A DNA stretch of 11,567 bases from contig NW_021826956.1 of assembly GCF_006345805.1 (NCBI RefSeq), forward strand, positions 1 to 11,567, given 5' to 3'. A program made the position numbers and the translations under genes. The DNA is from Octopus sinensis. Taxonomy: Eukaryota. Each line of letters starts with the position of its first letter. The stretch's first letter is position 1. The notes below the pieces were generated by a model that saw only the letters and a list, made by a program, of their open reading frames with translations, did no database searches and was not told the DNA's origin. This document shows, piece after piece, positions 362 to 10,318 of the stretch.

Positions 362-844
362 ACATTCGACTCACTAGAAAGAGCAGCCAAAACTCATACC
401 GCTAAATAGTTGTAATTCTGAAATAGAAAGAGAAATAAAAACGTTTACCCCCTTCATCTCTGGACTATGCATAGTTTCGGCAAAACTTTGACAAATGAAT
501 TAATTAAATTAAATTAAATTCATTTACATCTGGCGTGCCTCGTCAGCAGAGAGCCTAGGACGAGTATATGTCCACGAGGCTATGGTAAAGAAGCCTCCAG
601 TCACATATGCACTAAATTTTCAAATCTTACCGCAATCGCGCAGTCTACTCAGCAGCAAATATAAACTGCTGATTTAATTTCAAAATTAGCCTAAAAATCA
701 TTAATTAATAAATATAAGGGTAGCCAAAAATTCTTGTTGAATGTATATTATATAGTCTTTGACTATTTTTTCTTTCTCACTAGACCGCTGGTAGCGGAAA
801 ATTTTTTCTAGAATTTTTTGCTACCCTTATATTTATTAATTAAT
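362..844 (-). mobile_element. Hammerhead-bearing non-coding element (retrozyme/Penelope pLTR-like), version A, with an inverted terminal segment
   Basis: Colinear similarity to 9353-9832 (AGAAAGAGCAGCCA, TTTACCC, CACGAGGC, GCAGCAAAT, AGGGTAGC, TAGTCTTTGACTA). Contains a hammerhead on the - strand. 35-bp inverted repeat 700-734/810-844. Both flanks are (TA)n. Confidence 0.8.
457..552 (-). ncRNA. Type I hammerhead ribozyme
   Basis: Minus strand: stem I UCUCUG - core CUGACGA (546-540) - stem II GGCA...UGCC (~61 nt) - GAA - palindromic stem III ACUAUGCAUAGU - C - stem I' CAGAGA. GUC triplet; predicted cleavage between 463 and 462. Confidence 0.9.
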
Positions 845-2989: not shown

Positions 2990-3045
<56 letters not shown>

Positions 3046-3235
3046 ATATAAGTATACATCAACGTACATCATACACAGGACACACTTCCGCTAATACACT
3101 CAGACATATATACATACTTACAAATGTATCAAATGTATGTATGTATATATGTATATATGTATATAGATATATATACATACATGCATACATATATATATGC
3201 ATGTATGTATATATATATATATACATATATATGTA
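2752..3235. repeat. Compound (TA)n/(TACA)n microsatellite region
   Basis: Direct reading; explains the Y/I/H/T- and M/Y/V/C-rich ORFs. Confidence 0.95.
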
Positions 3236-3397
3236 GACGAGCAACGCCTTTATATTGTTATATCGTTTACACAGTAGACACGCAGCAAAATTATATTTAC
3301 GTATTTGTAACTCATACATCAATATATGGATTACGTCATAGGACTAAAACCGTCGTCCCCATCGTCATTATGTATGCTTATAAGTTTATGGATGAAT

Positions 3398-3638
3398 ATG
3401 TATATATTATATATATATATATACACACACACAAATATATACATAGATAGATTATATAATAGATTGAATATATATATATAATATATATATATACAATAGA
3501 TGCATATAGATATATAGAATAGATTGATATATATAATATAATATATATATATATTATATATATATATATATAATATACAAATAGATAGATAGCTTATAGA
3601 TAGATTTTAAATATATATATATGTACAAATAGATTGAT

Positions 3639-3730
<92 letters not shown>
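3398..3730. repeat. Degenerate (TA)n/(GATA)n ending in a pure (GATA)n array (3639-3730)
   Basis: Direct reading. Confidence 0.95.
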
Positions 3731-3732
<2 letters not shown>

Positions 3733-4215
3733 GCGTATATTTATCCGCACATATGCCTAACTAAAAGTAATTCAGTAATATAGAAGTATAAATTTGCAAG
3801 GACACATCATAACTATATTACAAATGTAAAAAAAAAAGAAAAGAAAAGAATTACCTGGATGCAGACTGGTGTTAAATAAGGTGTAGGAAATAGAACAGTG
3901 CTAAATGCACAATCATTAACGGACATCCGAGTGTAATAAACGCTTCTTTTATATTAAATGTATATGGATATAATTTCTTCATCAAAGACAAAATTCTTTC
4001 ATGTTAGACTTAGTTAAAGGTAATGCACAAATAAAAGAGCATGGAATGATATTTGGTTGATGATAAATGTTATATAAATCAGTCAGCGCTGGTAATAGCA
4101 GAAAATTATTCCATATTCAGGGAATATTGTATTTAGATGTGTTTGAACATATGTAAAATATACGGAAATTATTCGGAGAAAATACGTAGGAATAACTGTA
4201 GTATCATGTATAATA

Positions 4216-4336
4216 TAGATAGATAGATAGATAGATATCAGGCAGACAGAAAGAAAGATAGATAGATATACAGATAGATAGACTGACGGACAGACAGACA
4301 TATAGATAGATAGACAGATATATATATATATATATA
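4216..4336. repeat. Degenerate (GATA/GACA)n plus (TA)n
   Basis: Direct reading. Confidence 0.9.
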
Positions 4337-4530
4337 AAGTTAATCCAAACAAGAAAACACAAAAAAACACAACAACGTGAGGACATGGAACAAATATAGT
4401 ATTATTGGACGCTCAGGAAAGAAGGGAAGAAGGAGGATATAACGTTTCGAGCGGAGCTCTTCGTCGGAAGCACAGGAGAAGGAAAGATCCCAAGAAGGGA
4501 AGACAGAGGAAAAAAATCGCCAACGTATCA
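4337..4530 (-). mobile_element. Short non-coding repeat with minimal hammerhead-like core (family B, copy 1)
   Basis: Minus strand CCGACGA-A-GAGC-UCC-GCUC-GAAACGUU (4467-4441). Downstream blocks TTCCTGAGCGT, TAATAC, TTTGTT, CATGTC are shared with 11320-11503. Ends in (TA)n. Confidence 0.55.
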
Positions 4531-4533
4531 ATG

Positions 4534-4678
4534 TATCTCTCTCTGTCTTTCTCTTACTCCCTCTCTTTTCTTCTCACTCGCGTTCTCTCTCTCTCTCTTT
4601 CTCCCTCTATCTATCTATCTATCTATCTATTTATCTGCCTATCCGTCTGTCTACCAGACTGCTCGTCTGCCTATCTAT
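4534..4678. repeat. (CT)n/(TATC)n low-complexity tract
   Basis: Direct reading. Confidence 0.85.
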
Positions 4679-5008
4679 TCAACAAACACATATACCAATG
4701 TATAGTAGCGGACAAAAAAAAAAGAGAACAATAAATATTTATTTTTAAATGTCGGAAAAGCTAGTGAACGTACAAATTTGTAATTTCTTTAGTAAAATCG
4801 GTTCATCATTAACTAAATTTTCTGAAAAATTTACGTTTGTACAATAGTCTTAATAAAAGTTAATAATTCTAACACTAGTTTCGTCCAAATGTCTCATGTG
4901 CAAAATAAGAACGATTAGATTCCTTTAGAGATTTCTGGAAATTTCGAATATTGTTTACAACTGAGACTCAACGCTACTACCGTCTCAGTATCGTGCTAGC
5001 TTCCGAAC

Positions 5009-5526
5009 ATGACACACCACGCTAAAGTTTCCTCCCGACCTCCGAAAAGAAATTGTGAGGATGAAAGTTTCAGGAATTACTCCCTTGGCTATTTCACGAG
5101 ATGTAAGGAGATCTGGGAGTGTAGTTTCACGTGTTCTTAAGCCCTATGAAGAAACTAAAGGTTTTGAACCGAAAGAGGTAACTGGTAGACAACGCAAAAC
5201 TACCATGCGAGATGATCGAGCCTCGAAAGGTACTATTAAATGATTCTTTCGAGATTGCGAAAGCGTGTCACTGGATTCTTTAGTGAACAAAATATCCAAG
5301 CAATGAAGTGGTCAGCACAAAGTTCAGAAATGAATCCAATTGAAAACCTTTGGAAGATATTTGGAGACAAAGTAACACAAAGGGCACCAACTACGACGAC
5401 GAATTTATGGAGATATTAGAAGAGAAATGGAAGAAAGTAACACCTGACTTGTGCAGGAAACTTATGTCCTGTGGCAATCGATGTGCAGATGTGATCTCCA
5501 ACAAAGTTCTACAAATATTATACTAA
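5009..5526 (+). pseudogene. Tc1-family transposase pseudogene
   Basis: N-terminal HTH region with GRQRKTTMRDDR (GRPRKT motif), joined after ~5245 to WSAQSSEMNPIENLW (5309-5353; WPxQSPDLNPIENLW motif) and a LEEKWKKVTPDLCRKL..RCADVI tail. Frameshifted; middle of the DDE domain missing. Confidence 0.9.
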
Positions 5527-5540
5527 CTGTATTTTCAATT

Positions 5541-5927
5541 GTGGAGGCGCAATGGCCCAGTGGTTAGGGCAGCGGACTCGCGGTCGTAGGATCGCAGTTT
5601 CGATTCCCAGACCGGGCGTTGTGAGTGTTTATTGAGCGAAAACACCTAAAGCTCCAAGAGGCTCCGGCAGGGGATGCTGGTGATCCCTGCTGTACTCTTT
5701 CACCACAACCTTCTCTCACTCTTACTTCCTGTTTCTGTTGTACCTGTATTTCAAAGGGCCGGCCTTGTCACTCTCTGTGTCACGCTGAATATCCCCGAGA
5801 ACTACGTTAAGGGTACACGTGTCTGTGGAGTGCTCAGCCACTTACACGTTAATTTCACGAGCAAGCTGTTCCGTTGATTCGGATCAACCGGAACCCTCGT
5901 CGTCGTAACCGACGGAGTGCTTCCCAC
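5541..5927 (+). mobile_element. Full-length tRNA-derived SINE nested in the Tc1 element
   Basis: A-box TGGCCCAGTGG, B-box GTTTCGATTCCC. 10-bp TSD ATTTTCAATT at 5531-5540 and 5928-5937. Confidence 0.92.
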
Positions 5928-6490
5928 ATTTTCAATTATTATTATGGTTTGGAGTTAATTGAAGCATTTTTTTGGTACGATCGTTCTCTTATTTTGCACA
6001 AGAGACATTTGGACGAAAATAGTGTTAGTGTTATTAACTTTTATTAAGACCATTTGCAAAATCAGATTTTTTACAGAATTTAGCTAATGGTTAACCGTAT
6101 TTAGAAAACCAATTACAAATTTGTACGTTTACTAGCTTTTCCGCAATTTAAAAAAGATATTAATCGTTCGCTTTTTTTTTTTTTGCTCGATACCGTATGT
6201 GGCCATATTTTTTACTAACAGCTTTACTCAGCTCCATGTGTACGTGAATATGTGTTCATTCATCTAAGTATGTATGTATGTGTGTATGTGTGTGTTTGCG
6301 TATACTTAAGCTGAAACTATATAAAACCGCAAATGATAAGTAAAGGGGCAGAACAACAAGCGCGCATAAACCAATTTATAACGGAACATACATGTCTGTG
6401 ATAATCAAGAAATTATATCCAAACCATAATTTTGGTCGTTCGTATAACTGAAATAAACATGTGATATCAAAAAATAAATAAATAAATAAA

Positions 6491-7710
6491 GGCGCAGGAG
6501 TGGCTGTGTGGTAAGTAGCTTGCTAACCAACCACATGGTTCCGGGTTCAGTCCCACTGCGAGGCATCTTGGGCAAGTGTCTTCTGCTATGGCCCCGGGCC
6601 GACCAATGCCTTGTGAGTGGATTTGGTAGACGGAAACTGAAAGAAGCCTGTCGTATATATGTATATATATATATATGTGTGTATGTGTTTGGTGTCTGTG
6701 TTGTCCCCCTAGCATTGCTTGACAACCGATGCTGGTGTGTTTATGCCCACGTTACTTAGCGGTTCGACAAAAGTGACCGATAGAATAAGTACTGGGCTTA
6801 GAAAAGAATAAGTCCCGGGGTCGATTTGCTCGATTAAAGGCGGTGCTCCAGCATGGCCGCAGTCAAATGACTGAAACAATTAAAAGAGTACGTAGGCGCA
6901 GGAGTGGCTGTGTGGTAAGTAGCTTGCTAACCAATCACATTGTTCCGGGTTCAGTCCCACTGCGTGGCACCTTGGGCAAGTGTATTCTGCTATAGCCCCG
7001 GGCCGACCAATGCCTTGTGAGTGGATTTGGTAGACGGAAACTGAAAGAAGCCTGTCGTATATATGTATATATATATATATGTGTGTATGTGTTTGTGTGT
7101 CTGTGTTTGTCCCCCTAGCATTGCTTGACAACCGATGCTGGTGTGTTTATGCCCACGTTACTTAGCGGTTCGACAAAAGTGACCGATAGAGTAAGTACTG
7201 GGCTTAGAAAAGAATAAGTCCCGGGGTCGATTTGCTCGATTAAAGGCGGTGCTCCAGCATGGCCGCAGTCAAATGACTGAAACAATTAAAAGAGTACGTA
7301 GGCGCAGGAGTGGCTGTGTGGTAAGTAGCTTGCTACCCAATCACATTGTTCCGGGTTCAGTCCCACTGCGTGGCACCTTGGGCAAGTGTATTCGCTATAG
7401 CCCCGGGCCTACCAATGCCTTGTGAGTGGATTTGGTAGACGGAAACTGAAAGAAGCCTGTCGTATATATGTATATATATTATATGTGTGTGTGTGTTTGT
7501 GTGTCTGTGTTTGTCCCCCTAGCATTGCTTGACAACCGATGCTGGTGTGTTTACGTCCCCGTCACTTAGCGGTTCAGCAAAAAGAGACCGATAGAATAAG
7601 TACTGGGCTTACAAAGAATAAGTCCCGGGGTCGATTTGCTCGACTAAAAAAGGCGGTGCTCCAGCATGGCCGCAGTCAAATGACTGAAAAGAGTAAAGAG
7701 TAAATAGAGT
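6491..7710 (+). mobile_element. Head-to-tail trimer of a ~405-bp tRNA-derived SINE (units start 6491, 6895, 7301)
   Basis: A-box TGGCTGTGTGG, B-box GGTTCAGTCCC, CORE-like CTTGGGCAAGTG, internal (TA)(TG) microsatellite. The 3' GGGGTCGAT block is shared with the SINE at 1326. Flanked by AAATAAATAAATAAATAAA at 6472-6490 and 7711-7729. Confidence 0.92.
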
Positions 7711-9243: not shown

Positions 9244-9275
<32 letters not shown>

Positions 9276-9352
9276 GCCAACCACACACACACACACCACA
9301 CACACAACAACACACACACACCACACACCACACACACACATATATATAATAT
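9136..9352. repeat. Compound (TA)/(GATA)/(TG)/(CA) microsatellites
   Basis: Direct reading. Confidence 0.9.
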
Positions 9353-9571
9353 ATTAATCAATTTAGGGTAGCAAAAATTCAGTAAAAATTTATCGCTACC
9401 ACGGCCTAATGGAAAAGAGAAAATAGTCAAAGACTAAATATGTATAAATATAACAATTTAGGAATGGCCTAAACAGGCCATTCGTCCACCAGAAAGAGCA
9501 GCCATAACTCCAACCGCCAAGTAGTGTAATTCGGAAATAAGGTGAAATTTAAAAACATTTACCCTAATTCA

Positions 9572-9669
9572 TCTTTATACGATGCATCGTTTCAGTGTCT
9601 TTAATGATAGACCAGCTTAATTAAATTAAATTAGCTAGTCTACCATAGGTCACACTTCATCAGTAAAGA
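9572..9669 (-). ncRNA. Type I hammerhead ribozyme
   Basis: Minus strand: UCUUUA - CUGAUGA - AGUGU...ACACU - GAA - ACGAUGCAUCGU - A - UAAAGA. GUA triplet; predicted cleavage between 9578 and 9577. Confidence 0.9.
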
Positions 9670-10030
9670 AACCTGGGAGAGACGGATATACACGAGGCGA
9701 CTGTATCAATGCCTCGGGAATATCTGTCTTAAAATTTCAAACCAACGCATTCTCGCCAAACTTATCGGCAGCAAATAAAAACTGCCGATTCAATCTCAGA
9801 ATTAGTCAGAAATTATCAATTAATCAATTTAGCGATAATTTTTACTGAATTTTTTGCTACCCTAAATTTGATAATTGATAATTTTTGCTAATTCTTAAAT
9901 TCTGAGATTGAATCGGCAGTTATATTTGCTGCCGATAAGTTTGGCGCGAATGCGTTGTCTTGAAAATTTTAAGACAGATATTCCCGAGGCTTGATACAGT
10001 CGCCTCGTGTATATCCGTCTCTCCCAGTTT

Positions 10031-10131
10031 TCTTTTACTGATGAAGTGTGACCTATGGTAGACTAGCTTAATTTAATTTAATTAAGCTGGTCTATCATTA
10101 AAGACACTGAAACGATGCATCGTATAAAAGA
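10031..10131 (+). ncRNA. Type I hammerhead ribozyme
   Basis: Stem I UCUUUUA (10031-10037)/UAAAAGA (10125-10131). Core CUGAUGA 10038-10044. Stem II 10045-10108. GAAA 10109-10112. Palindromic stem III 10112-10123. GUA triplet; cleavage predicted after 10124. Confidence 0.92.
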
Positions 10132-10250
10132 TGAATTAGGGTAAATGTTTTTAAATTTTCACCTTATTTCCGAATTACACTACTTGGCGGTTGGAGTTAT
10201 GGCTGCTCTTTCTGGTGGACGAATGCCTGTTTAGGCCATTCCTAATTGTT

Positions 10251-10318
10251 ATATATATATATATATATAATATATATATATAATATATATATAATATAAT
10301 ATATATAAATATATAAAC
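10251..10318. repeat. (TA)n microsatellite
   Basis: Direct reading. Confidence 0.95.

What the first reader, a model, noticed from the sequence alone, without database searches (positions are those of the whole stretch)
9353..9832. Terminally redundant, circularly permuted ~466-nt non-coding monomer: retrozyme-like circular RNA replicon?
Seen: on the ribozyme (-) strand the body (9832->9449) runs through an AT linker (TTGTTATATTTATACATATT) into TAGTCTTTGACTA...GCTACCCTAAATTGATTAAT (9436->9353). This segment also precedes the body (partly visible at 9833-9870; direct repeat at 9353/9819). Version A has the same join (TTGTTGAATGTATATTATA-TAGTCTTTGACTA, 734-765), and its segment stops at the same ATTAAT before (TA)n. 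No ORF. Known: retrozymes are small non-autonomous retroelements whose tandem transcripts are cut by hammerheads into monomers that circularise; PLE pseudo-LTRs arise as partial tandems. Inference: a ~466-nt ribozyme-processed monomer copied slightly more than once. I cannot tell whether this family is already catalogued.
Basis: partly seen in the sequence, partly recalled or inferred. Interest (0 to 1): 0.85.

Follow-up and report, generated by a model that had tools for sequence, protein, structure and literature searches.

The report
Two-armed hammerhead retrozyme, Penelope footprint
This is half of a mirror-image insertion of a 475-base non-coding repeat that carries a predicted self-cutting hammerhead RNA; it is likely a protein-free parasite (retrozyme) of Penelope-like retrotransposons, a known kind, and its copies suggest that both arms are written from one RNA, possibly a circle, primed at two fixed sites.

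Summary
The quoted motifs are there, but 9353-9832 is only the left arm of one two-armed insertion (9353-10253) between microsatellites. Redundancy is 14 nt; 9830-9875 opens an inverted right arm. The unit is 475 nt (this copy lacks 9 single bases) with a covarying type I hammerhead. In 79 other loci it forms diverging tandem arms: 51 of 55 simple two-armed loci pair one end with an ~84-nt tail and one without, and none pairs like with like (one tail-tail block lies inside a duplicated locus). Both arms share one haplotype, centres carry microhomology, and arms run through the ribozyme cut site. Two coding Penelope-like families in the genome leave the same footprint; none shares sequence with the unit. 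Verdict: new member of a known kind (non-LTR retrozyme, a non-autonomous Penelope-like element), likely copied by two-site priming on one RNA. A circular template is about 55% likely; no RNA, cleavage or circle is shown, and this copy cannot release a monomer. The scan reported this class before on other DNA.

The parts
9353..9832 (-). Left (tailed) arm: one full monomer (9818->9353, 466 nt) preceded by 14 nt of the previous monomer (9832->9819); 3' end points outwards into (AT)n
9353..9436 (-). Tail (about 84 nt): short hairpin plus longer hairpin, between the two fixed 3' ends of the family; present at one outer end per insertion
9437..9456 (-). AT linker; holds the second fixed 3' end (no-tail end) used by the opposite arm
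9572..9669 (-). Type I hammerhead motif, left arm; predicted cut between 9578 and 9577
   Evidence: sequence, descriptor search, covariation
9830..9832 (.). Head-to-head centre; 3 nt (TAG) belong to both arms
   Evidence: read by eye: a 1-nt deletion beside the junction made the script call it a 4-nt insert
9830..10253 (+). Right (no-tail) arm: last ~46 nt of a monomer (9830-9875), then monomer positions 1 to ~378, ending in the AT linker and merging with (TA)n
10031..10131 (+). Type I hammerhead motif, right arm: stem I 7 bp, CUGAUGA, stem II 5 bp plus long A/U hairpin, GAAA, palindromic stem III, GUA; predicted cut between 10124 and 10125
10250..10315 (.). (TA)n target microsatellite, right side
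9244..9352 (.). (AC)n then short (AT)n microsatellite, left side
363..733 (-). Subfamily A insertion, no-tail arm (alternative short end also seen in L074, L078); about 70% identical to the family above
457..552 (-). Subfamily A hammerhead (CUGACGA, GUC; predicted cut between 463 and 462), stems changed on both sides
734..840 (+). Subfamily A insertion, tailed arm (linker plus tail) ending in (TA)n

Best explanation
The stretch is the tailed arm of a two-armed insertion of a 475-nt non-coding, hammerhead-bearing unit that is likely a non-autonomous Penelope-like element (non-LTR retrozyme), likely copied by a borrowed Penelope-type reverse transcriptase/GIY-YIG enzyme from one RNA, possibly a circle, primed at two fixed sites. 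Steps. (1) Inferred: loci with two or more same-strand monomers are transcribed, and the hammerheads, likely as dimers through the palindromic stem III, cut out monomers that a host ligase closes into circles; uncut multimers are the alternative template. (2) Inferred from PMC11167929: the enzyme nicks both strands of a (TA)n run, and the two 3' ends prime on A/U-rich sites of the RNA about 84 nt apart. (3) Shown in the DNA: one outer end is the tailed site and the other the no-tail site, both 3' ends point outwards, and the arms cross the ribozyme cut site without a scar and reach about 7 monomers. (4) Shown: both arms carry one haplotype; inferred: one template molecule. (5) Shown: the centre varies and is rich in 1-5 nt microhomology; inferred: the two growing cDNAs are joined by end annealing and repair. 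Odds: PLE-mobilised retrozyme about 0.9; coupled two-site priming about 0.75; circular rather than uncut linear template about 0.55.
For: Ends: best-hit set of 39 loci: 33 simple two-armed, 31 tail + no-tail, 2 cut off (foreign sequence, contig end); set chosen by the no-tail end, 40 loci: 22 simple two-armed, 20 tail + no-tail, 2 atypical; no like-with-like pair among these 55. With the two end types about equally common (104 and 117 exact matches), 0 of 20 has p about 1e-6 under free choice. Subfamily A: 9 of 10 two-armed loci among 22 read by eye pair the same way, 1 unclear. Haplotypes: substitution distance 0.0029 within an arm, 0.0029 across arms, 0.020 between loci; 109 of 109 shared fixed variants in two-armed loci are in both arms, and 4 private variants are fixed in both arms (4/4, 10/10, 9/10, 4/4 copies); 19 fixed haplotypes among 30 loci (about 17 after merging by eye). 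Centres: 3 nt or more of microhomology in 15 of 26 cleanly mapped junctions against 6% in simulated ones. Cut site crossed by 12 of 20 tailed and 16 of 20 no-tail arms; 5' stops not enriched there (4 of 104 against 3.3 expected). Hammerhead: 9 of 14 pairs change on both sides across three subfamilies, 99% of cells paired, slid controls 34-46%; the only frequent change at the cut site is GUA to GUC (11 of 215 segments); stem III is weak as a hairpin (0 to -1 kcal/mol) and strong as a dimer (-16 to -19). Monomer folding z = -8.4 as a circle, -6.9 linear. Helpers: two young RT + GIY-YIG families end in (TA)n with or without a 34- to ~40-nt tail, and L110 and L188 are two-armed with one of each. 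Literature: the footprint is the PLE hallmark (PMC8557442 Fig. 2 legend; PMC3846280); a PLE protein cuts and extends both strands from two RT start sites that bound the tail (PMC11167929).
Against: No coding element with this unit as its pLTR among 70 PLE loci, mostly of two families (only 150 of 5029 GIY-YIG candidates were scored); PMC3846280 reports no cross-mobilisation between two PLE types in a rotifer. No cleavage, transcript or circle shown; Rfam finds no hammerhead. DNA-level duplication occurs, or the assembly mimics it: a 3-monomer repeat in one arm of L055 and whole-block repeats in L054 and L153, so long uniform arms need not come from a circle. One two-arm variant is in register (L062), as a linear multimer template or arm-to-arm conversion would give. 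L054 holds a tail-tail block. 22 of 79 loci show one arm only by BLAST. 24 of 50 junctions did not map cleanly and were left out of the microhomology count. In vitro, the anole PLE used uncut RNA and showed no strand difference in start site. The covariation rests on three subfamilies, not eight independent sequences.
Confidence: 0.8

Rival explanations
1. Same element and enzyme, but the template is an uncut linear multimer read through a genomic array; uniform long arms arise by DNA-level duplication or gene conversion after insertion, and circles play no part in copying.
For: L055, L054, L153 duplications; in-register variant in L062; uncut RNA is the main substrate in vitro (PMC11167929).
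Against: New variants are found fixed across both arms (4 private cases) or in single copies (89), rarely in between (8, of which 4 are the L055 repeat). About 17 stepwise whole-array haplotypes would each need a bottleneck and regrowth. In 37 cases the in-register partner lacks a minor variant.
Confidence: 0.35
2. Solo or truncated pLTRs of a coding Penelope-like element not yet found.
For: The footprint equals that of coding PLEs; Xenopus retrozymes resemble pLTRs (10.64898/2026.07.22.740005); the search for partners was incomplete.
Against: In all multi-monomer arms position 475 joins position 1 with no coding sequence; three subfamilies about 70% alike keep the whole unit; where subfamily A lies beside a PLE (L111, L125) a (TA)n run separates them.
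Confidence: 0.07
3. Foldback/MITE-type DNA element or satellite whose inverted arms are terminal inverted repeats.
For: Long inverted repeat, 91% over about 400 nt per arm; TA targets.
Against: The two ends differ by the 84-nt tail, arm lengths run from 37 to 3284 nt, the centre differs between loci, and the ribozyme covaries.
Confidence: 0.03
4. The inversions are long-read fold-back chimeras.
For: The window contig is small (11.6 kb) and has single-base losses.
Against: Arms are asymmetric with a fixed tail/no-tail rule, flanks differ on the two sides, most loci lie on chromosome-size contigs; one 57-nt public contig (X16, record 13) changes strand in the same way, with only 27-30 letters per side, so weak.
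Confidence: 0.02

Closest known systems
Metazoan non-LTR retrozymes (Cervera and de la Pena 2020, PMC7229834; parts 2-4 of 6 and a term search read; supplement not readable. Li, Clavereau and Pollet 2026, 10.64898/2026.07.22.740005; parts 1-3 of 5 and a term search read; supplements not seen)
   Same: Non-coding, low G+C, head-to-tail units with a type I hammerhead, stable predicted fold, coexistence with PLEs; proposed PLE-driven copying of a circle into tandem cDNA.
   Different: Unit is 475 nt (170-400 nt in PMC7229834; 51-972 in the preprint); stem II has a ~54-nt extension; neither main text mentions octopus or cephalopods in what was searched, inverted arms or a tail. Their circles were shown by northern blot; here none is shown.
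Endonuclease-positive Penelope-like elements (Craig et al. 2021, PMC8557442, passages and supplement term search; Arkhipova et al. 2013, PMC3846280, passages; Cervera and de la Pena 2014, PMC4209133, passages)
   Same: Partial tandems, head-to-head inverted copy, tail often at one end only, (TA)n preference, type I hammerhead with palindromic stem III; non-autonomous tandem forms are known (MRC1 in Chlamydomonas).
   Different: No ORF; tail 84 nt rather than 30-40 nt; the tail/no-tail pairing is near strict here (51 of 55) where the papers say 'often' or 'optional'.
PAc (Poseidon of Anolis) in vitro mechanism (Frangieh et al. 2024, PMC11167929; parts 1-2 of 4 read)
   Same: Both strands cut and extended, AT-rich target, two internal RT start sites that bound the tail and lie downstream of the hammerhead.
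   Different: In vitro no strand difference in start site was seen and no circle was used; the genomic pairing here implies coupling of the two sites.

Membership tests
Non-LTR retrozyme | Short non-coding unit in head-to-tail copies | tested here: met
   Arms of up to ~7 monomers, period 474-475; no ORF in the unit
Non-LTR retrozyme | Type I hammerhead in each unit | tested here: met
   Core, three stems and NUH present; 9 of 14 pairs covary. Rfam models do not detect it; loop contacts not tested
Non-LTR retrozyme | No LTR, primer-binding site or polypurine tract | tested here: inconclusive
   Insertions hold only monomer sequence; no search for a primer-binding site or purine tract was run
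Non-LTR retrozyme | Self-cleavage of the transcript | not testable with these tools
   Needs in vitro transcription
Non-LTR retrozyme | Expressed as linear and circular monomer RNA | tested here: inconclusive
   Only assembled contigs of runs guessed to be RNA were on offer; they cannot show strand, ends or circles
Non-LTR retrozyme | At least two same-strand hammerheads at the locus (activity criterion of the 2026 preprint) | tested here: not met
   Not met for the window copy (one per strand); met for many other loci such as L035, L044, L048
Penelope-like element, non-autonomous | Partial tandem plus head-to-head inverted, 5'-truncated copy | tested here: met
   55 of 79 loci simple two-armed, 2 duplicated two-armed, 22 one-armed
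Penelope-like element, non-autonomous | [quoted passage not shown] | tested here: met
   51 of 55
Penelope-like element, non-autonomous | Sequence kinship with the pLTR of a coding PLE | tested here: inconclusive
   None among 70 PLE loci, but most PLE candidates were not examined
Penelope-like element, autonomous | RT plus GIY-YIG ORF | tested here: not met
   such ORFs exist elsewhere in the genome
MITE / foldback DNA element | Identical fixed terminal inverted repeats | tested here: not met
   Ends differ by the tail; arm length and centre vary
MITE / foldback DNA element | Target-site duplication | not testable with these tools
   Insertion in (TA)n hides any duplication
Viroid-like circular RNA replicon | Ribozymes on both polarities of the unit, RNA-to-RNA replication | tested here: not met
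   The descriptor finds one hammerhead per unit on one polarity only; other ribozyme classes were not sought beyond Rfam; replication not testable

The most novel reading that the evidence does not exclude
These insertions are a genomic record of coupled twin priming on a circular RNA: a Penelope enzyme holds one retrozyme circle, starts one cDNA at each of two fixed sites from the two nicked strands of a (TA)n run, rolls round the circle, and the two cDNAs are joined head to head. That would explain the PLE tail and tandem/inverted structure in one step and supply the missing evidence that animal retrozyme circles are true transposition intermediates.
Probability: 0.42. Interest if true: 0.7.

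Novelty: new member of a known kind. Interest (0 to 1): 0.42.

Why it matters
The class and the footprint are known, so the element itself is ordinary. What it adds is counts on an open mechanism: papers call the PLE tandem/inverted structure unexplained and treat retrozyme circles as hypothetical templates. A young, short, protein-free family with a near-strict tail/no-tail rule and whole-array haplotypes gives a 475-nt RNA and candidate enzymes from the same genome for a direct in vitro test. I found no paper counting this pairing (open-access library only).

Tried and rejected
Rfam, whole window and 9990-10170: no hammerhead family, only hairpin and microsatellite noise. Expression: no RNA holder listed on record; 4 + 1 runs guessed to be RNA hold pieces at summed depth about 10-50, which a multi-copy repeat could give from DNA or pre-mRNA; no silent control was laid. 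Partner search: GIY-YIG scan (150 of 5029 candidates scored) and one protein search (58 of 31166); adjacency in L110, L111, L125, L084 is nesting in (TA)n; weak 63-65% hits beside L116 look like an older relative. Template 5' end at the ribozyme cut: not enriched. Equal stop positions in the two arms: explained by palindromes and hairpins at the junction. L032 variant first read as in register: uninformative. Exponential fit of arm lengths: not used, because that sample left out 9 long loci already fetched. Flank count (93 of 121): not used, the pattern caught extra sites. Catalogue check: three family motifs absent from the one searchable supplement of PMC8557442; the supplement of PMC7229834 could not be read; the Octopus vulgaris repeat paper PMC13282606 (passages; supplement listed, not read) did not turn up under 'ribozyme' counts; Dfam and Repbase could not be searched, so the family may be catalogued there. 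Scan look-up by sequence: nothing.

Full report
Observation. The exact direct repeat 9353/9819 is 14 nt. The rest of the claimed redundancy is a misreading: 9830-9875 is the same tail segment in inverted orientation and opens a right arm on the + strand that ends at about 10253 in (TA)n. The whole object is 9353-10253, two arms head to head with their 3' ends outwards. The left arm is one monomer plus 14 nt and ends with an ~84-nt tail; the right arm is 46 nt plus 378 nt and ends in the AT linker without the tail. Version A (363-840, about 70% identical) is built the same way: ribozyme on -, linker and tail on +. No ORF lies inside the unit.

Setting. The genome has 2.72 Gb and about 30 chromosome-size contigs; I infer an octopus-like animal from size and repeats (recalled, not tested). 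The unit gave 219 matches from 40 scored candidates and 286 exact hits to a ribozyme pattern. The period is 474-475 nt, also in short-read contigs; the window copy lacks 9 single bases, possibly long-read error.

Ribozyme. Each unit has a type I hammerhead: 7-bp stem I, CUGAUGA, 5-bp stem II with a long A/U hairpin, GAAA, a 12-nt palindromic stem III and GUA. Across subfamilies A, B and C, 9 of 14 pairs change on both sides and 99% of cells pair, against 34-46% when slid (three independent lineages only). Core positions are nearly invariant apart from the free position and GUA to GUC. Stem III is far more stable as a dimer, as described for metazoan and PLE hammerheads (PMC4209133). Rfam misses the motif. 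The monomer folds well below shuffles. The two hammerheads of the window copy are on opposite strands, so this copy could not cut out a monomer.

Architecture of the family. I fetched 39 best-hit loci and 40 loci chosen only by the no-tail end (the first 50 listed places less 9 already held and 1 double entry). Of 79, 55 are simple two-armed, 22 show one arm by BLAST and 2 are duplicated blocks. Of the 55, 51 have one tailed and one no-tail end and 4 have a cut-off or atypical end; none has two alike. L054 holds a tail-tail block inside a duplication. The two end types are about equally common, so free choice would give many like pairs (p about 1e-6 for 0 of 20). Subfamily A agrees in 9 of 10 two-armed loci read by eye and has a second short end in 3. 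Centres vary; 15 of 26 clean junctions have 3 nt or more of microhomology against 6% simulated; 24 of 50 did not map cleanly and 2 had no anchor. Arms cross the predicted cut site without a scar and do not stop there by preference, so a cut linear monomer is not the template unless template jumps are seamless.

One template. Monomers differ by 0.29% within an arm, 0.29% across arms and 2.0% between loci. All 109 shared fixed variants in two-armed loci are in both arms; 4 private variants are fixed in both arms; 89 are single-copy and 8 intermediate (L054 and L153 left out). Thirty loci carry 19 fixed haplotypes in stepwise series. This is what copying from a single monomer gives, which favours a circle. 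Against it: L055 repeats three monomers in one arm, L054 and L153 repeat whole blocks, and L062 has a variant in register in both arms, so DNA-level growth, conversion or a linear multimer template remain open. I put the circle at about 0.55.

Helper. The genome holds young RT + GIY-YIG elements. The L112 protein has a CxxxxCxxC motif before a C-terminal GIY-YIG, which PMC8557442 gives for Neptune and Nematis; no tree was built. Both families examined end in (TA)n with or without a 34- to ~40-nt tail, and L110 and L188 are two-armed with one of each. Neither shares sequence with the unit, so the helper is not identified.

Comparison. Tandem hammerhead units that form circles are published for coral, mussel and axolotl, with PLEs proposed as helpers (PMC7229834), and a 2026 preprint links them to pLTRs. 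The tandem/inverted structure with a tail at one end and (TA)n bias is the PLE hallmark, and two RT start sites bounding the tail were shown in vitro. So it works like a PLE-mobilised retrozyme and meets the sequence-level tests for that class; cleavage and circles are untested. Earlier agents of this scan filed similar units the same way; these notes are not independent evidence. I found no paper that counts the end pairing or uses whole-array haplotypes; unseen supplements and Dfam/Repbase may hold the family.

Verdict. New member of a known kind; interest 0.42. The boldest reading not excluded is coupled twin priming on one circular RNA (probability 0.42, interest 0.7).

Noticed in passing
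L112:1674-3110 and 3032-5374; L116:7003-8439 and 4739-7081; L125:4008-5417: A young Penelope-like family has two overlapping frames: a 479-aa upstream frame with no Pfam match above cut-off and the 781-aa RT + GIY-YIG frame. The upstream frame is intact and 97% identical in L112 and L116. PLEs are described with a single ORF; a frameshift, intron or separate ORF1 is possible.
   Followed up: partly
L114:7129 and 7629; L115:7262 and 7762; L058:861; L085:2382; L147:5616; L119:8021: Other type I hammerhead families with unrelated stems, some in diverging pairs like this one.
   Followed up: no
L059:3492-4576; L152:1781-2270: Third subfamily (C), 73-76% identical, core CUGAAGA, one wobble in stem III; nested beside B copies.
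   Followed up: partly
window 6490-7689: Three tandem copies of a 404-bp SINE-like unit, 96% alike, each with an internal (TA)n.
   Followed up: no
window about 4750-5500 and 5950-6170: Broken Tc1/mariner-like remnant: paired-box match E 9e-6 at 5061-5237, weak DDE_3 match at 5303-5413; inverted-looking ends near 4750 and 6150 seen by eye.
   Followed up: partly
L053 (centre near 5089) and L060 (centre near 4847): Two loci on different contigs and with different haplotypes share the same centre junction (monomer positions 440 and 247, 5-nt microhomology); 247 is the first base after the predicted cut.
   Followed up: no
L054:2836-7530; L153:555-2936; L112:1-1653 and 5934-7591: Local block duplications that include these elements; real or assembly artefact not resolved.
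   Followed up: no
L110, L111, L125, L084: Retrozyme copies sit in the (TA)n run at the 3' end of coding PLEs; these runs collect nested insertions.
   Followed up: partly
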